A stretch of DNA of 35,360 nt from Burkholderiaceae bacterium (lineage in GTDB: Bacteria; Pseudomonadota; Gammaproteobacteria; Burkholderiales; Burkholderiaceae), in the NCBI GenBank assembly GCA_035539795.1, contig DATLHT010000008.1, forward strand, positions 1-35,360. Direction: 5' to 3'. Made by a program: the position numbers and the translations under genes. This document shows positions 12,721-19,200 of this stretch, piece after piece. Below the pieces are notes generated by a model that searched no databases, had not been told where the DNA came from, and was given only the letters and a program-made list of their open reading frames with translations. Numbering within the stretch: position 1 is the stretch's first letter; each line of letters begins with the position of its first letter.

Positions 12721-12990
12721 GATATCTAGGGCGATGGAAAGGCTCCTATTCTAGTCTCCTCGAATGAATGCGTCATCCTGCTAAATAGGTACCGACGGCA
12801 CCGCAGTAACCATGTCCTGATTTCTTGACGAGGGAAACCCAAAATACACTATGTCCGCCGCTAGCTCCGGTAACTGCGTAATCGGTTGCCCATACCTCAG
12901 TGAGGCTGGAGCGTGTTCACCATGACTGTCGCCAGCTGGGCATGCCAGCAATCGACTGTGCGCGTAGCGGTAGCGTGCAGCGACGGTTTG

Positions 12991-13521
12991 CTAGCGTTGC
13001 CGCTGCTGGCACGCGATCAGATAGTCGCTGTGCATGGACACGTACCGCCCTTCCTGAGCGGGCTGCAAGGGGATAGCACGCAGATTCGAGGACAGGCCTT
13101 TTGCCTTCCAGTCCGGAATGAATTCGAACTGGCGCAGCTTGCCGGGAAAACGGAAGCTGTCGACCATCCCCGTCACGGGATTCAGGCCCAGCCGTTCGTC
13201 GGTCGAGGGCTGGTCCACGCGCATCTCCAGCACCTTGTTGAGCGGTGCAGTCCAGCTGCGCGGCAAGATGGCGTAGCTGCTCCACTGATAGTCCGGCCCG
13301 AGACCACATTCCACTTGCAGGAGCCGCCCGGCTTCCAGATCGCTGCGGCTCAGGCCGGCAGCATGCGCACGCGCCGCGAGCTGGCGGTTCCATGACTGCT
13401 CGAGGTCGGCCGGCTTGAATACCCGGCTGACCGACACCCATACCGTGTCGCCGGCGGTGGGTGGGGTTCCGCAGCCTGCGAGCAATGTCGCGGCAAGTGT
13501 GAGCCATCGTGCACGCATCAT
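12991..13521 (-). CDS. Hypothetical lipoprotein (176 aa)
   Basis: GAGGAAG RBS directly upstream of ATG 13521; signal peptide MMRARWLTLAATLLAG-C with LAGC lipobox. Confidence 0.75.
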   Translation of the reverse strand: MMRARWLTLAATLLAGCGTPPTAGDTVWVSVSRVFKPADLEQSWNRQLAARAHAAGLSRSDLEAGRLLQVECGLGPDYQWSSYAILPRSWTAPLNKVLEMRVDQPSTDERLGLNPVTGMVDSFRFPGKLRQFEFIPDWKAKGLSSNLRAIPLQPAQEGRYVSMHSDYLIACQQRQR

Positions 13522-13727
13522 GTCTTCCTCGGGAAAACGATCTCGACAGGATTGTGCCATTGACCGCGGAGCTTGCGCACAGTTATCGCAACAGTGATGA
13601 TGGCGCGGACTGAATGTCTGCATGCGAGTATCGTGTGCGGTTTCGTGTGATGCGTGCGCGTGGGCCACAGCCAGCCGAATCGGCGATCGCCTATCCGCTG
13701 TTGTTCCGGTATATCCCAAGTACGCGC

Positions 13728-13756
13728 TTGCTCGCGCTCCTGCAGTTACTTATCGT
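13728..13756 (+). promoter_or_regulatory. Putative sigma70-type promoter of paralogue 1
   Basis: TTGCTC (13728-13733), 17 nt, TATCGT (13751-13756); same architecture upstream of paralogues 2 and 3. Confidence 0.6.
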
Positions 13757-13780: not shown

Positions 13781-15346
13781 ATGATGGTGTTGCGGCCTGT
13801 TCGGTTTTTCTCTCCCTCTCCCTCTACGGCAGCAGAGGCAACTTCTGTCTCCACAGCACCAGCGCATGTCCAGACGGAGTTCCTCGCTGAAAGATCTGCT
13901 GCTGCTCGCACACGACGGCTATTGCGCAGCCTACTCCGCCAGTTGGAGCGGAGCCGCCCCTACCCTCGCGCACTGACCCCTGCGGCATCGGCCTGGGGCA
14001 TCAGCGCAGAAGCTACAGCATTACGCGTCAACTTGTACGAAACGCCATTCTCCCGCAACTGGCAACCCACTGATTCCGCCGTCGTGGCGCATAGCCTGTT
14101 GTATGCCGAAGCCGGGGATCTGTTGCCCATGTTAGGTGCCAGGGGTATGAGGATCGTGCAGTGTGCATGGGAGGCAGCACGCGCAAACGACCGTGTGGCG
14201 GATGACTACGATGCCTTTGCGAGCCGCTTTGCGCTGTGGTTGCTGGAGAGACTCGCGCTTTTGCAGAATGGGCTCGCGTGTCCGGAGCTCGCACCCGGCC
14301 TGGTGGAGGCGCTGCGGATCCGGGCGTATCTCGAGACGCCAGACCGGGTGGGCACAACGCAGATCGCGGAAGCGTGGATCCGCCAGGCCGAAGCGCTGGG
14401 CCTGTGTCGCCTGCGTGTCCGCGTGGGTACGCAGGCCGAGCTCGATATCTTGCTGCAGCAGGACGATTGCGCGCTCTTTCCGGTGCTGGGCATTGCGCTG
14501 GCCGGCGCCAACCTGGAATCGCGGCATGCGACCGTGCACGACCTGATTCAGCGCATCGTGCTCCCGGACACGCCGCAGGGGATAGATCCGGTGGGGTCTC
14601 CCGCTGTTTCAGCGAGTGATCTGCTATCGAATACCTCGCCGCTAAATAATCCCTCGCCGAATGATCTGTCACCAAAAGACACCACGCCGAGCGACGCGAC
14701 ACTGAACGGCACGATACCGGAACAGCCGCCTCAAGAAGTACACGCAGATGAGGTTGTGCGTAATGTACCGTTGAGCGCCCCATGCAGTCCGGTCTCGATT
14801 GCGCCGACTGTGTCACCGACCTGGATCTCATCAACTCCGCCGATGACAGGAACAGCACCGGCCAGCGCTAACGATATCCCGTTTCCGGACAAGCCCGTGG
14901 TCTCGCACCAGGTTGACGAGGCGGTCAATGGCATTGCTGCGTTTGCGCGGGACTGGTTTGGCATTCGCGCGCCCACGGCGGCCGAACGGGAGCCAGTGAG
15001 GCGCCGCATGCGTTCCACGCTGCGCCAGAGGCAAGAGGATTTTGAGGGGCTCTACCGGCGTCTCAAGCATCAAGGCCGATTGCCGTCCATCGAGGAATTC
15101 TTTCTGACGATATGCGTGCATTGCGAAATCGCCAGGCGTCGTTCCGGTATGGAGTATTCCGTGGCGACCGGGCCCGTGCCGATGCGGCCGGGTATTTTCT
15201 ATTACCACATCAAGCTGCGGCATTTGCCGACACTGACCGTCGTGGTCAAGCCGAGCCGCTGCCATTCGCTGGCGCGACTGGTCGTGCTGCTCAATCCCGA
15301 TATGCGGGAAATCTCTGGCGCTGTGTGGTCGTTGAAACGCAACTGA
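13781..15346 (+). CDS. Hypothetical protein, paralogue 1 (domain A + domain B); candidate secreted effector
   Basis: Long ORF with visible colinear similarity to 15590-17272 and 17431-19200. Start taken at ATG 13781 (AGGA at 13777-13780; 13784 or 13787 possible) rather than 13622, which lies upstream of the predicted promoter. Confidence 0.75.
   Translation: MMVLRPVRFFSPSPSTAAEATSVSTAPAHVQTEFLAERSAAARTRRLLRSLLRQLERSRPYPRALTPAASAWGISAEATALRVNLYETPFSRNWQPTDSAVVAHSLLYAEAGDLLPMLGARGMRIVQCAWEAARANDRVADDYDAFASRFALWLLERLALLQNGLACPELAPGLVEALRIRAYLETPDRVGTTQIAEAWIRQAEALGLCRLRVRVGTQAELDILLQQDDCALFPVLGIALAGANLESRHATVHDLIQRIVLPDTPQGIDPVGSPAVSASDLLSNTSPLNNPSPNDLSPKDTTPSDATLNGTIPEQPPQEVHADEVVRNVPLSAPCSPVSIAPTVSPTWISSTPPMTGTAPASANDIPFPDKPVVSHQVDEAVNGIAAFARDWFGIRAPTAAEREPVRRRMRSTLRQRQEDFEGLYRRLKHQGRLPSIEEFFLTICVHCEIARRRSGMEYSVATGPVPMRPGIFYYHIKLRHLPTLTVVVKPSRCHSLARLVVLLNPDMREISGAVWSLKRN
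14615..14719 (+). repeat. Degenerate 15-bp in-frame tandem repeat, about 7 units
   Basis: Encodes SDLLS/NTSPL/NNPSP/NDLSP/KDTTP/SDATL/NGTIP; e.g. aataatccctcgccg aatgatctgtcacca aaagacaccacgccg. Confidence 0.55.
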
Positions 15347-15531
15347 TTGTGCTTATGCGTTCCGTGAGGGCGCAGCGCGGTGGTCGGTGGCGTAGTTCGC
15401 GAAGGGGGGCCCGCGACCAGGGTCATAAAAAGGTACCGACACCGATCCCGGCCCGTATCTTGTGCCGGCTAGGGGGCAACGAAGCTGCGGGCGGAAACAC
15501 GTTGTGTCACGCCGCACTTACATCTTTTTTC

Positions 15532-15560
15532 TTGAGAGACGCACGGACGCTGCTTATCGT
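15532..15560 (+). promoter_or_regulatory. Putative sigma70-type promoter of paralogue 2
   Basis: TTGAGA (15532-15537), 17 nt, TATCGT (15555-15560), preceded by a T6 tract. Confidence 0.65.
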
Positions 15561-15589
15561 CGGGGAGCTTTAGTTTTTCCCGATTTTTC

Positions 15590-17272
15590 ATGCCAAATTC
15601 ATCTTCTTTTCCGCCGATCCGAAGCGAGCAGGGTGCTTCTGGCGGGCGCCGTTTTCCTTCGCTAGCCAAGGCGTTCGGTGCGCTCTCCGATCATCCCGCC
15701 AACCCGCACGAGCCCAGCCGGGGAACCAGCCAGGGGGCCAGCAACATTCCCCGAAGCCGCCAGCAGGTCATGCAATCGTCATACACCAGCGCGGAACTGC
15801 CTGTCGCGGCTTCCTGGGAACGCAGCGCCGGTGCGCCGTCATCTCCCGTGTCTCCCGCGCTTCCGGTGACTATGCAGCTGCCCTGTTTCATGGCGCCGGC
15901 GTTCACGCCGGACTGGCAACCTGGCGATCATACGCTCGCCACCTACCCCACGTTATGCGGAGAGGAACGTAGCGGGAGCTTCTCGCCGATGGTCGAGATC
16001 GCCGGATACCCCTCGTTGACGCAGATGCTGTCTGCCAGGACCACCGGTGAGGCATCACCATCCGGGGCGGACACGCACATCGAGGCCTATGTCGGTCGGT
16101 TGGTCCTCTGGATGCTGGAGAATCTTCACATGGTCACCGCGCTGACCCAGGAGGCCGACGTGCAGCCAGCCGCGCTCGGGTGTACTTGTATCGATGACAC
16201 GGGATGGAAATGGGAGACTGCGGGCGACCGGTTCATCTTAAGGTTGCTGGTGGAGAAGGCCGACAGACTGGGCTTGTCCCAGTACCGGATGATGCTGGAC
16301 GAAACCCAGCCTGTGACGATTTTCGCGCCGTATCCCTTTACCCAGACAGCGACCCCGAAGATCGCCTGCTACTTTTCCGATACCCCGGTCCGGCAGCGTT
16401 GTGGCCTCCTGCAGGACTTGATAGAGCGTATCGGGTCGTGCAGCACACCCCGGCGCGGCCCAGCCCATGCCGAGAAACGCCGGGCTATGCCGCTGGAGCA
16501 GGACGTTCGTGCGCCAGCCAAGCGGCGTCTGATGCTGTCCGATGTCCTGCAAGGCGACGAGCCCGGTCTGCAGGGGCAACCTGCTGTGCAGGCCATGGCC
16601 GCCGCGCCAAGCGTTAGGTCGAGAATGTCCTTGGAGGTGCTGCTATCCGCGCCGGAGCCGTCCGCGATGCCGCAGGCGCTCGTTGCAACGGCACCGCGAA
16701 ATGAAGCCGAGGTCCGGGAGGCACCACAGCCGGCTGCCGGTATGCGCCCGTACCGTGCCATCCTGCCGGCACCGCCTGTTTCGCCGTTACCGCACAGTGC
16801 TGCGTTGTCCCTGATGCAACGCATGTCGCGTGCGCGCATCCGCGACTTCATGCTGCAGTGGACTGCCCAGCGGCCTTGTGCGCCCGAGACTGACGTCTCC
16901 TTGTCTGATGCCCAAATGCCGCTGGGGGGCAATCTCGCCGATTTTAGACGGGCACATCAGGATTATCAGACATTCACTGGTACGCAATGCTCGCCGCGGG
17001 CGTTCTACGAAAATCTCCGGGATTTGTGTGTCGTGGCATCGCGCAGACCGGCTCAGTATGCTTCGCTGGTCGAGGTCAGTTACCTTGGCGAGAGGCTGCC
17101 AGCGCATTACTTTATTGAGTTCGTGCCGGGAAGACGGATCGTAGTGATGGCCCAGATTTGCCGTACGGACCCGTTTGCTCATGCACATCTTCTGTATCAG
17201 CCGACGTCAGACGAGATCAGGTACGTGGCGAAGAGAGTCACACGGTGGATCAATTTATATGGCGGTCTGTAG
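15590..17272 (+). CDS. Hypothetical protein, paralogue 2 (domain A + domain B); candidate secreted effector
   Basis: 560-aa ORF filling the gap; Ser/Pro-rich N-terminus; homology blocks shared with both neighbours. Confidence 0.8.
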   Translation: MPNSSSFPPIRSEQGASGGRRFPSLAKAFGALSDHPANPHEPSRGTSQGASNIPRSRQQVMQSSYTSAELPVAASWERSAGAPSSPVSPALPVTMQLPCFMAPAFTPDWQPGDHTLATYPTLCGEERSGSFSPMVEIAGYPSLTQMLSARTTGEASPSGADTHIEAYVGRLVLWMLENLHMVTALTQEADVQPAALGCTCIDDTGWKWETAGDRFILRLLVEKADRLGLSQYRMMLDETQPVTIFAPYPFTQTATPKIACYFSDTPVRQRCGLLQDLIERIGSCSTPRRGPAHAEKRRAMPLEQDVRAPAKRRLMLSDVLQGDEPGLQGQPAVQAMAAAPSVRSRMSLEVLLSAPEPSAMPQALVATAPRNEAEVREAPQPAAGMRPYRAILPAPPVSPLPHSAALSLMQRMSRARIRDFMLQWTAQRPCAPETDVSLSDAQMPLGGNLADFRRAHQDYQTFTGTQCSPRAFYENLRDLCVVASRRPAQYASLVEVSYLGERLPAHYFIEFVPGRRIVVMAQICRTDPFAHAHLLYQPTSDEIRYVAKRVTRWINLYGGL

Positions 17273-17369
17273 CAATGGAGTCTATGGAAAAAATGACATG
17301 GTGCGGTACCCGGGATGCGAAGCGACAGGTAGAGCGGCGTTGTCATCGTTCGTTTAGCCAAAATTCTCC

Positions 17370-17398
17370 TTGGGGGGAGCGGCCGGGCTGCCTATCGT
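17370..17398 (+). promoter_or_regulatory. Putative sigma70-type promoter of paralogue 3
   Basis: TTGGGG (17370-17375), 17 nt, TATCGT (17393-17398). Confidence 0.55.
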
Positions 17399-17430
17399 CG
17401 TGAGCGTCTCCCTCACAATGCCAACGCGCC

Positions 17431-19200
17431 ATGCTGAAGACTCCGATTGGAAATCGCCCGGGCTTTCTGCCTTTGCAGCAAGTCAGTAATGCCGATGGCC
17501 TGAGCTGCGAAGCCGACGTGTCCACCGAGCTTTCACCGGATATGCACACGACCACGGCGCGCTCGCGTGGCATCCTGCTATCCGAACCGCAGCAGCATAG
17601 GCAGCATGGGGGGGCGCCGGGGTCGCCCACGCTGCAGGTGGTGCCTCAACCGCAGCCATCAGCAGGATGTGAGCGCGGGATGCGCGCTTCCCCCTATGCT
17701 CGACACGAGAAGACGCCGGTGCGAACTGGCGATTCGGAGATCGTATCCGCACAGGAGGTATCTGCTTCGCAGCGCATGGTAGAGGGGCGCACCCGCCGTT
17801 TCCTCCTCCAGTTTCTCAGGACGCGCGCCGCATCATCGTCTGCGTTGGGGACAGCCGGCGGGCAGGGCGGAACGCCGCCGCTCCGCGTCGCCAGTCTGCC
17901 TGCACGTGGTGCCGTCTCCCCTCAGGCGCAGACGCAGACGGCACGGCAGATGCCCCTCACAACAGCCATGCCGGGCCTGCAGCCATTGCACGTTTATCAC
18001 GGCCTGCAATTCTCAGGTGCCCCGCCGGTGTCACTGCAAGGGCTAATAGTACGCGGCGGGCAGAATGTGCTGTTATCGTCCATGCTGTGTCATGGTCACC
18101 AGCAGCCGTGGCCGACGGCTATGGCAGGGGGCTCGCCTGTGCTTTCCGATTCGGTACCTCCGCCTGTCACATTGCATGAGTCGCTTCCCGTAACGCTTGC
18201 TGTTCCGTGCGAACCGGCAGGCCCGGAGAATACGGAGGTTTCAAGTCAAGAGCATGCCAGAGCCCCCCATTTGGCAGAGGCCGATATTTCGAGCCCGGTT
18301 CACGCGCAACTTCTCGAAACGACGCGCAGTATCCTGAAAGAGAACCCCGTTGGGGACTGCATGGCGACTCGGCTGCCGTATGTGCAGCAGGTACGTGTCG
18401 CAGCGCACATGCGCAAAGCGCTCGGTCGGGAGTATCGGGCGTTCTGCGATATCCATGCACGGTACAGCCGAGCTACCGCTTCTTCGTGTTCGTTGGAAGC
18501 TTTCTATTTCAGTCTGCAGAACATGTGCGACGCCGCCCGGCGCGCGCCTGAGTTGCGCACCAACTATGTCCGCATGATCGATAGTGACCGACTGATTCGC
18601 CGCTATTGGGTTGCTCTACCGCGTGCTGTGCCGCTGATCGTGGTAGCCCAGGTTGTGACCGACGACCTGTTCGGCGCGATGTCCGTTGTGGAACAGCTAG
18701 GCCAGCAGGAGCAGCCGGACGAACAGGCATTGTCGTCGGCGAGCGAAGTTGTGCAGCAACGGGGATTGCGATGGAGAATGCAATGCACAATGGGATATGA
18801 CTACATGGGGCGGGTGAAGGCGGTCTGTGATGCATACTGGCGGGACAGTGGCATCAGGCTGTCGCACGAACAGCTGTACATGGGGCTGATGAGCCTATGC
18901 CATGAGGCTGGCGAGTCTACCGGGGAGCCCTGCATCGAGCGGTTGAGCGCTGATGTGCTGAGGACATTTACGCAGGCCATTCAGGTTCAAGGTGTCAATC
19001 AGGGAAAGCCTCTGGACGGCATCAAGCGCTACTTCGTGCAGTTGCCGGACGACAAGCGTTTCGTCCTCCTGGCGAGCCCACAAGGCAGTGATCCGCTTGG
19101 CTTGATCGACATCCTCTACAAGCCGGGTTGGCCGCAGATCCGGGATGCCTGCAAGCGCATGGCAGAAACGCCGGCCATCTGGAACGTGAATTGGCGGTAG
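17431..19200 (+). CDS. Hypothetical protein, paralogue 3 (long low-complexity N-terminus + two copies of domain B); candidate secreted effector
   Basis: 589-aa ORF; C-terminal half has two segments each alignable to the C-termini of paralogues 1 and 2. Confidence 0.8.
   Translation: MLKTPIGNRPGFLPLQQVSNADGLSCEADVSTELSPDMHTTTARSRGILLSEPQQHRQHGGAPGSPTLQVVPQPQPSAGCERGMRASPYARHEKTPVRTGDSEIVSAQEVSASQRMVEGRTRRFLLQFLRTRAASSSALGTAGGQGGTPPLRVASLPARGAVSPQAQTQTARQMPLTTAMPGLQPLHVYHGLQFSGAPPVSLQGLIVRGGQNVLLSSMLCHGHQQPWPTAMAGGSPVLSDSVPPPVTLHESLPVTLAVPCEPAGPENTEVSSQEHARAPHLAEADISSPVHAQLLETTRSILKENPVGDCMATRLPYVQQVRVAAHMRKALGREYRAFCDIHARYSRATASSCSLEAFYFSLQNMCDAARRAPELRTNYVRMIDSDRLIRRYWVALPRAVPLIVVAQVVTDDLFGAMSVVEQLGQQEQPDEQALSSASEVVQQRGLRWRMQCTMGYDYMGRVKAVCDAYWRDSGIRLSHEQLYMGLMSLCHEAGESTGEPCIERLSADVLRTFTQAIQVQGVNQGKPLDGIKRYFVQLPDDKRFVLLASPQGSDPLGLIDILYKPGWPQIRDACKRMAETPAIWNVNWR

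What the first reader, a model, noticed from the sequence alone, without database searches (positions are those of the whole stretch)
13781..19200. Tandem family of three modular paralogues: candidate undescribed nucleus-targeted effector system
Seen: three 520-590 aa ORFs with no motif I recognise, but mutually homologous with shuffled architecture (A+B, A+B, B+B). They have long Pro/Ser/Ala/Gln-rich linkers, no Sec signal peptide or TM helix that I can see, individual matching promoters, and eukaryote-like linear motifs. Established: translocated effectors of plant- and fungus-associated Burkholderiaceae often occur as diverged paralogues with disordered N-termini and host-mimicking motifs. 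Inference: a co-regulated effector family, possibly transcription-regulator mimics, inserted between two glycan loci.
Basis: partly seen in the sequence, partly recalled or inferred. Interest (0 to 1): 0.88.

Follow-up and report, generated by a model that had tools for sequence, protein, structure and literature searches.

The report
Orphan effector-like gene trio in Imbroritus
Three related genes, so far seen only in the water-and-sludge bacterium Imbroritus, encode two unclassified protein domains joined by floppy linkers, and they are likely proteins that the bacterium injects into amoebae or fungi, with one predicted to enter the nucleus and possibly recruit a gene-silencing factor.

Summary
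Three intact, purifying-selected genes (13781-15346, 15590-17272, 17431-19200) form a real paralogue family with architecture A+B, A+B, B+B, long disordered linkers and one matching upstream element each. The window comes from an Imbroritus (Burkholderiaceae) genome. The family and a divergent lipoprotein form a cassette between two glycan loci that adjoin in a sister genus; all relatives found look like Imbroritus orthologues or paralogues. Neither domain has a known family; B folds confidently but matches nothing above noise. The genome encodes a Ysc-type type III system, and the N-termini resemble its substrates. ORF2-type proteins keep a nuclear-import-like basic motif and a Tup1/eh1-like motif as conserved islands in diverged linkers. 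Best reading: a new type III effector family aimed at microbial eukaryotes (secreted about 0.55; nuclear corepressor recruiting for ORF2 about 0.2). Nothing here shows secretion or localisation.

The parts
12991..13521 (-). Divergent 176-aa lipoprotein-like gene (N-terminal LLAGC), part of the same genus-specific cassette
   Evidence: No Pfam/PADLOC/PHROG hit; found in 2 of 198 family genomes scored, 90% identical in the congener
13680..13707 (-). Degenerate HrpL-like box (GGAAC-N16-TCGCCGA) facing the lipoprotein gene
   Evidence: the congener has a perfect box at the same place, 1 of only 8 genome-wide, 5 of which are in the type III cluster; reversed-pattern control 3
13727..13756 (+). RpoD-type promoter-like element 1 (CTTG-N19-TTATCGT)
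   Evidence: matches ttG-N20-TANaaT architecture in PMC4149516
13781..15346 (+). ORF1, 521 aa, A+B; basic B domain with CVHC; no K-based NLS, no Tup1-type motif
   Evidence: dN/dS 0.17 in A, 0.37 in B; B net charge +13
14027..14575 (+). ORF1 domain A (acidic, no known family)
14921..15343 (+). ORF1 domain B (distant member)
   Evidence: Leave-out profile
15531..15560 (+). RpoD-type promoter-like element 2
   Evidence: rank 1 of 6.69 million positions with a matrix from the congener's sites only
15590..17272 (+). ORF2, 560 aa, A+B with motif-bearing disordered linker
15881..16447 (+). ORF2 domain A; AlphaFold model unusable (pLDDT 43)
16475..16528 (+). Bipartite NLS-like motif KRR-x12-KRR (residues 296-313); EKR[KR] core in 5 of 5 ORF2-type proteins
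   Evidence: block score 98; 11 of 200 shuffles reach it
16625..16657 (+). Tup1/eh1-like motif MSLEVLLSAPE (residues 346-356)
   Evidence: (score 121, 0 of 200 shuffles); motif definition from PMC4943189
16826..17263 (+). ORF2 domain B: two helices, four-stranded sheet, C-terminal helix
   Evidence: AlphaFold pLDDT 77, pTM 0.73; best structural Z 5.1
17369..17398 (+). RpoD-type promoter-like element 3
17431..19200 (+). ORF3, 589 aa, about 290-aa disordered N-terminus then B1+B2; the RKR motif of two orthologues is lost here
   Evidence: (dN/dS 0.17 B1, 0.43 B2)
18337..19185 (+). ORF3 tandem domains B1 (about 18337-18741) and B2 (about 18742-19185)

Best explanation
These three genes are a tandem, Imbroritus-restricted paralogue family under purifying selection, and they likely encode type III effectors that the genome's Ysc-type injectisome would deliver into microbial eukaryotes such as amoebae or fungi, where the ORF2-type protein is predicted to enter the nucleus and possibly recruit a Tup1-like corepressor. 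Shown: family, architecture, selection, conserved motifs, presence of the injectisome. Inferred: export (from N-terminal composition and disorder), the host (from habitat and the spread of Tup1), nuclear import (from the basic motif), corepressor binding (from a short amphipathic motif). Domain B is the likely working module; its strong positive charge in ORF1-type proteins would suit nucleic-acid binding. The family has split its jobs: ORF2-type proteins carry the nuclear motifs, ORF1-type a basic B, ORF3-type a doubled B. Odds: exported effector about 0.55; nuclear ORF2 given export about 0.65; Tup1-type motif functional given that about 0.5.
For: Complete-looking Ysc-family system in both genomes: SctV, D, X, J, L, N over curated cut-offs, gatekeeper, SseC-like translocator and a CesT-family chaperone, with counterparts on four contigs of the window's genome at 78-88% identity; SctX/Y mark the Ysc family (PMC7498569). 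No T6SS sheath gene in either genome. N-termini: all three have 12-20% Ser in the first 50 residues and no acidic residue in the first 12, a pair met by 8.9% of 1112 predicted genes (rule from PMC3338616 abstract); Ser of 10% or more in 8 of 8 family members with usable starts, composition like the cluster's own translocators. No signal peptide or membrane helix. Disorder in the top 1%. Fast evolution, duplication, domain loss and gene-order change across four lineages. In 5 of 5 ORF2-type linkers an EKR[KR] motif and an [MI][SP][ILV]xx[LM]L motif persist while the rest diverges; the latter occurs 30 times in 2158 other predicted proteins, 0 times in disordered flanks; a matrix from three proteins of the other lineage ranks the ORF2 and P0005 motifs 6th and 3rd of 655,953 peptides. 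Fungal Tup1 ligands follow [VI]xx[IL][LM], and Tup1 occurs in fungi, oomycetes, Amoebozoa and Naegleria (PMC4943189). The divergent cassette gene has the type III promoter box in the congener.
Against: The three genes lack the HrpL-like box that marks the type III operons; their own element is RpoD-like and has no match of 9 bits or more in 40 kb of the type III region. The third N-terminal rule (aliphatic or Pro at position 3-4) is met by 2 of 8 members and the acidic rule by 6 of 8; the cited paper says these patterns are not required and can mislead. The three are paralogues, so their N-termini are not independent evidence. ORF1 and ORF3 have no K-based NLS and no Tup1-type motif (best ranks 262 and 1281). 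The window's ORF2 motif starts with Leu, so only 3 of 5 fit the strict fungal pattern; the motif was defined after seeing the sequences, Copley warns that without the first Phe it is poorly specified, and the top-ranked match in the genome is an ordinary sigma-70-family protein. The NLS block alone is marginal (11 of 200 shuffles). B is near neutral in most ORF2- and ORF3-type copies. No chaperone gene is adjacent. No eukaryotic host is known for the genus.
Confidence: 0.4

Rival explanations
1. The proteins stay inside the bacterium. They are housekeeping-promoter-driven, lineage-specific factors, for example a much-diverged RelE/BECR-type nuclease or defence protein, or regulators tied to the flanking glycan loci; the short motifs bind bacterial partners.
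For: RpoD-type promoters rather than the type III box. RelE/HigB/YoeB/ParE structures recur among the weak structural matches of B (7nbu_Y Z 4.9, rmsd 4.0, 95 aligned; 6af3_A Z 4.3, rmsd 5.7, 103 aligned). The cassette sits at the edge of a strain-variable surface-glycan locus. The corepressor-like motif resembles a stretch of a sigma-70-family protein.
Against: Profile comparison with a RelE family alignment gives probability 0.4-0.7%; no PADLOC, PHROG, Pfam or NCBIfam hit; no small antitoxin-like gene between the ORFs; no conserved catalytic-type Arg/His/Tyr set, only one Cys and one Ala invariant in 17 B copies; disorder this extensive is in the top 1% of the proteome.
Confidence: 0.27
2. 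They are type III effectors, but B works in the host cytoplasm as a longin/roadblock/profilin-like interaction module (membrane traffic, small-GTPase regulators or actin), for example to survive in a phagosome; tandem B1-B2 would mimic a longin dimer.
For: Top structural rows are Gse1p/EGO (3lgo_A Z 5.1, rmsd 4.1, 93 aligned) and profilin (8c47_B Z 5.1, rmsd 3.5, 93 aligned), with MglB, Mon1-Ccz1 and TRAPP lower. Two of the three window proteins lack nuclear motifs.
Against: Z 5.1 is below the 7-8 that the tool reports as typical for models without a clear match; RelE-like rows tie with it. ORF2-type proteins keep an NLS-like motif in 5 of 5.
Confidence: 0.17
3. They are exported to a eukaryote by another route (flagellar export, a type IV system or vesicles), which would explain the missing type III promoter box.
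For: Flagellar FlhA is present; a partial VirB4-like match exists in the congener; Mycetohabitans TAL-like proteins reach the fungal nucleus without a recognisable type III signal (PMC12886408).
Against: No VirB4 match in the window's genome, which is 73% complete; N-termini resemble this genome's type III substrates.
Confidence: 0.11
4. The ORFs are decaying or non-functional reading frames and the similarities are low-complexity artefacts.
For: A crude codon-usage gene caller did not call them; within-species differences listed for ORF1 were 12 non-synonymous of 19; one of seven DNA runs shows a single-base insertion in ORF3.
Against: Between species dN/dS is 0.17-0.43 in the domains; all other indels inside the ORFs in seven DNA runs are in frame; homology lies in the folded domains, not the linkers; promoter elements are conserved across species.
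Confidence: 0.03

Closest known systems
Corepressor-recruiting effectors with EAR motifs (oomycete HaRxL21, Ustilago Jsi1 and others binding TOPLESS; PMC12886408 passages)
   Same: Proposed logic: a translocated protein carries a short motif that recruits a Groucho/Tup1-family corepressor.
   Different: Those are eukaryotic pathogens' proteins with LxLxL or DLNxxP motifs aimed at plant TOPLESS; none of the three window proteins has either motif. The motif here is of the fungal Tup1/eh1 type and binding is untested.
TAL and TAL-like effectors (Xanthomonas, Ralstonia RipTAL, Mycetohabitans Btl) and Pantoea HsvG
   Same: Bacterial transcription-factor mimics; Burkholderiaceae examples act in fungal nuclei; N-terminal export region plus NLS.
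   Different: No TAL repeats or any Pfam domain; different folded modules; no DNA binding shown.
Fungal Tup1 ligands (MATalpha2 IxIxxLL; [VI]xx[IL][LM] in fission-yeast factors) and metazoan eh1 (PMC4943189)
   Same: Spacing of hydrophobic residues in a disordered region; the congener's IPIHTLL equals IxIxxLL.
   Different: No leading Phe (so not eh1 proper); the window's ORF2 has Leu at the first position; carried by a bacterial protein with no known DNA-binding domain.
Bordetella Bsc / Ysc-family type III system with ECF sigma BtrS (PMC7498569) and the HrpL promoter (PMC4149516)
   Same: The genome's injectisome has SctX, SctW-TyeA and sctL-sctN adjacency, and GGAAC-N16-YYACTNA boxes before its operons.
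   Different: This is the proposed delivery machine, not the finding; the three genes are unlinked to it and lack its box.
RelE/HigB/ParE toxin fold; longin/roadblock/profilin fold
   Same: Weak structural resemblance of B: helices on a four-stranded sheet (Z 3-5.1).
   Different: Scores are at noise level, profile similarity to RelE is absent, and the proteins are five times longer with no antitoxin partner.

Membership tests
Type III secreted effector | A non-flagellar type III system with translocon in the same genome | tested here: met
Type III secreted effector | Substrate-like N-terminus (Ser-rich, no early acidic residue, aliphatic/Pro at 3-4), no Sec signal | tested here: inconclusive
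   First two patterns met by 3 of 3 window proteins, third by 1 of 3; background 8.9% for the pair
Type III secreted effector | Promoter of the type III regulon | tested here: not met
   HrpL-like box absent before ORF1-3; present only before the divergent lipoprotein in the congener
Type III secreted effector | Translocation that depends on the injectisome | not testable with these tools
   Needs a reporter assay
Nucleus-targeted effector (nucleomodulin) | Nuclear localisation signal | tested here: inconclusive
   Bipartite basic motif in ORF2; EKR[KR] in 5 of 5 ORF2-type; none in ORF1 or ORF3 (RKR in 2 of 4 ORF3-type); block p about 0.055
Nucleus-targeted effector (nucleomodulin) | Nuclear localisation and action on chromatin or transcription | not testable with these tools
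   Needs imaging and reporter assays
TAL / TAL-like effector | Array of 33-35-residue repeats | tested here: not met
   No Pfam hit; no such repeats in the sequences or the DNA repeat scan
EAR-motif (TOPLESS-binding) effector | LxLxL or DLNxxP motif | tested here: not met
   Absent from ORF1-3
Tup1/Groucho WD40 ligand | [VI]xx[IL][LM] motif conserved in a non-domain region | tested here: inconclusive
   Conserved island in 5 of 5 ORF2-type linkers; strict pattern in 3 of 5, not in the window's ORF2
Tup1/Groucho WD40 ligand | Binding to the corepressor | not testable with these tools
   No eukaryotic partner could be modelled
RelE/HigB toxin superfamily | RelE-type fold | tested here: inconclusive
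   Z up to 4.9, rmsd 4.0, 95 aligned, tied with unrelated folds
RelE/HigB toxin superfamily | Profile similarity to a RelE family and an adjacent antitoxin gene | tested here: not met
   hhalign 0.4-0.7% against one five-row PF06296 alignment only; no Pfam hit in 8 B copies; no small partner gene
Longin/roadblock/profilin-like fold | Structural match well above background | tested here: inconclusive
   Best Z 5.1, rmsd 3.5-4.1, 93 aligned

The most novel reading that the evidence does not exclude
An environmental bacterium injects a family of transcription-factor mimics, built on a new nucleic-acid-binding fold (domain B), into amoebae or fungi, and the ORF2-type member silences host genes by recruiting the Tup1 corepressor through an eh1-like motif: the microbial-eukaryote counterpart of TOPLESS-hijacking plant effectors and a repressor counterpart of TAL effectors.
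Probability: 0.18. Interest if true: 0.85.

Novelty: new variant of a known kind. Interest (0 to 1): 0.56.

Why it matters
What type III systems of free-living bacteria inject into protists and fungi is poorly known. This locus gives a small, culturable test case: an undescribed family with two unclassified domains, one of which folds confidently with no structural match above noise, in a genus with a deposited strain and an apparently undescribed Ysc-type injectisome. If ORF2 recruits Tup1, it would be a bacterial effector that hijacks the fungal/amoebal corepressor; my searches found no such report. Even if the effector reading fails, domain B is a candidate new fold.

Tried and rejected
Family libraries: no hit for ORF1-3 in Pfam, NCBIfam, PADLOC or PHROGs; 8 B copies gave one weak Pfam hit. 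PDB sequence profiles gave nothing under E 0.05. ESM Atlas: no usable feature hit for A or B. Foldseek against PDB and viral models: nothing at E 0.001; an unlisted fold is not excluded. Domain A model too poor to search. Idea that A is a diverged B: probability 4% with small alignments, 0.7% with larger ones; not supported. Idea that B is HigB/RelE: see membership. PIP/hrpII boxes (TTCG-N16-TTCG) are absent upstream of the genes and from the congener's type III region. Relatives outside the genus: 0 of 59 other relatives with ORF2, 0 of 399 class genomes with the B profile, none in JGI metagenome, viral or plasmid collections. One hit of the 1.84-billion search (P0016, a 2676-aa repeat protein matched through 12 repeats) was dropped as spurious, leaving 9 of 10. 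Expression: one RNA run holds five 151-170-base contigs on the locus; this does not show transcription. The species description of I. primus is not held; only its title was seen in a reference list. Earlier scan notes: none found.
Full report
Source. The window is contig C8 of a 3.37 Mb, 73% complete genome. Its only congener among the held genomes (G001) carries the same locus; the genome-contig scan names that record Imbroritus primus, a Burkholderiaceae genus described from environmental water (title only). Twenty public runs from 17 studies hold the stretch; their labels are activated sludge, sludge, wastewater, oil/hydrocarbon, soil or unspecified (the soil run may be the source). I laid 8 of them.

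Observation. The three ORFs are as described. Domain-level shuffles confirm A(1)-A(2), B(2)-B1(3), B(2)-B2(3) and B1-B2 at z 8-13; ORF1's C-terminal domain is only marginal pairwise but is recovered by a profile that excludes its subfamily (ranks 1-4 of 2162). The genes are under purifying selection between species (dN/dS 0.17-0.43 in domains, 0.32-0.57 in linkers and N-termini; neighbours 0.13-0.17). In seven other DNA runs all indels inside the ORFs are in frame except one single-base insertion in ORF3 in one low-depth contig.

Distribution and history. An exhaustive profile search of 1.84 billion representatives gave 10 hits, 9 of them family members; word-based searches added no other kind. 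By the B-domain tree and contig sizes they come from about four related lineages; the genus of the two unnamed lineages is inferred from this, not shown. The congener has the genes in the order ORF1, ORF3, ORF2-like, and one lineage has two ORF2-type proteins, one of which has no A domain (P0014, P0015), which points to duplication and loss. With a divergent lipoprotein gene (2 of 198 family genomes) the trio forms a cassette; in two genomes of a sister genus the glycosyltransferase-flippase cluster directly adjoins the other glycan locus, and none of 3 loci examined has the cassette. The left-hand glycan locus differs between strains and species.

Domains. No library names A or B. B folds with pLDDT 77 and pTM 0.73 as helices on a four-stranded sheet. 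Its best structural scores (Z 5.1 to Gse1p and profilin, 4.9 to HigB1) are below the tool's typical background best of 7-8, and a RelE profile does not match. B is strongly basic in 4 of 4 ORF1-type proteins (+7 to +13; 2.3% of background windows reach +8) and mostly near neutral elsewhere; A is acidic. A could not be modelled.

Secretion context. Both genomes have a non-flagellar SctV. The congener's cluster encodes SctD, V, X, N-chaperone, W-TyeA, an SseC-like translocator, I, J, K, L, N, Q and a CesT-family chaperone, matched in the window's genome at 78-88% identity; SctX/Y are specific to the Ysc family (PMC7498569 passages). No T6SS sheath gene was found in either genome and a partial VirB4-like match only in the congener. 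The N-termini of ORF1-3 meet two of the three P. syringae substrate patterns (PMC3338616 abstract), a pair met by 8.9% of 1112 crudely predicted genes, and resemble the cluster's translocators. This is suggestive only.

Regulation. Each gene has CTTG-N19-YTATCGT upstream: 3 of 3 genome hits here (1.2 expected anywhere by independence), 3 of 6 in the congener, and a matrix from the congener's sites ranks the window's sites 1, 2 and 6 of 6.69 million. This is the RpoD layout ttG-N20-TANaaT, whereas the type III operons carry GGAAC-N16-YYACTNA, the HrpL layout (PMC4149516 passages). One link remains: the divergent lipoprotein gene has a perfect box in the congener (1 of 8 genome-wide, control 3) and a two-mismatch version here.

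Linear motifs. In 5 of 5 ORF2-type proteins the disordered linker keeps EKR[KR] (bipartite in ORF2 and P0005) and [MI][SP][ILV]xx[LM]L..PE; the second block beats all 200 shuffles, the first is marginal (11 of 200). The second motif is never in disordered flanks among 2158 other predicted proteins (0 of 30 hits) and is recovered across lineages. It fits the fungal Tup1-ligand pattern strictly in 3 of 5, and Tup1 occurs in fungi, oomycetes, Amoebozoa and Naegleria (PMC4943189, parts 1-2 of 5 read). Cautions: the pattern was drawn from these sequences, is weakly specified, and a sigma-factor stretch scores higher. That basic clusters of this kind act as NLSs is recalled knowledge, not a call result. 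ORF1 and ORF3 have neither motif.

Mechanism. Most likely the proteins are made from housekeeping promoters, exported by the Ysc-type system through their N-termini into a grazing or neighbouring microbial eukaryote, and act through B; ORF2 would enter the nucleus and bring in Tup1. Every step after 'the genes exist and are conserved' is inference. The main rival is an intracellular role, favoured by the promoter type.

Literature. 'Imbroritus' occurs in 2 held papers, a name list (listing only) and a citation (passages). Searches for a bacterial effector with an eh1/Tup1 motif returned 0, 0 and 5 papers; the five listings concern plant TOPLESS or unrelated topics, and I read passages of one (PMC12886408). 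Searches were seen as listings apart from the papers named. Subscription papers, including the species description, and supplements were not seen and could mention this type III system.

Verdict. A real, undescribed, genus-restricted family with two unclassified domains; a reasonable but unproven effector candidate, with the nuclear case limited to ORF2. New variant of a known kind; interest 0.56.

Noticed in passing
L013:10704-19988 and L014:1-19657 (G001); G000 contigs C434, C517, C490, C421: Ysc/Bsc-type type III cluster with HrpL-like promoter boxes, flanked by an AraC (485 aa), an OmpR-type and a LuxR-type regulator; an ECF-type sigma gene lies about 11 kb away. No report of it found in the held literature.
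   Followed up: partly
L014:3169-7197: A 1342-aa protein with no Pfam or NCBIfam hit sits under a type III promoter box beside the gatekeeper and translocator genes; a further effector or translocon candidate.
   Followed up: no
L051:848-1546 (minus strand); G000 contig C523: A type III promoter box outside the cluster precedes a roughly 200-aa Pro/Ala-rich ORF that has a counterpart in the window's genome; candidate effector. A long 7-base tandem repeat follows it in the congener.
   Followed up: partly
L041:1501-1851; G000 contig C387:531: A type III promoter box conserved in both genomes precedes an 87-aa protein with a hydrophobic N-terminus.
   Followed up: no
window:12991-13707: Genus-restricted lipoprotein-like gene, far more conserved (90%) than the trio, with a type III box that is perfect in the congener and degenerate here.
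   Followed up: partly
window:1-12950: Low-GC (50-56%) surface-glycan locus; other strains diverge from it left of about 12986-13004 and the congener has Kdo/capsule-type genes there.
   Followed up: partly
window:17601-17607: A run of G in ORF3 is one base longer in one contig of one run (depth about 6), not in six other DNA runs; assembly error or slippage.
   Followed up: partly
window:15653-15667 and equivalents: An N-terminal [FY]PS[LAF][AV] motif is shared by 4 of 4 ORF2-type proteins with intact N-termini and the congener's ORF1; 1 of 2158 other predicted proteins has it. Possible chaperone-binding or export motif.
   Followed up: partly
window:16760-16777: ILPAPP motif in 3 of 5 ORF2-type linkers; I recall similar motifs in eukaryotic transcription factors but did not test this.
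   Followed up: no
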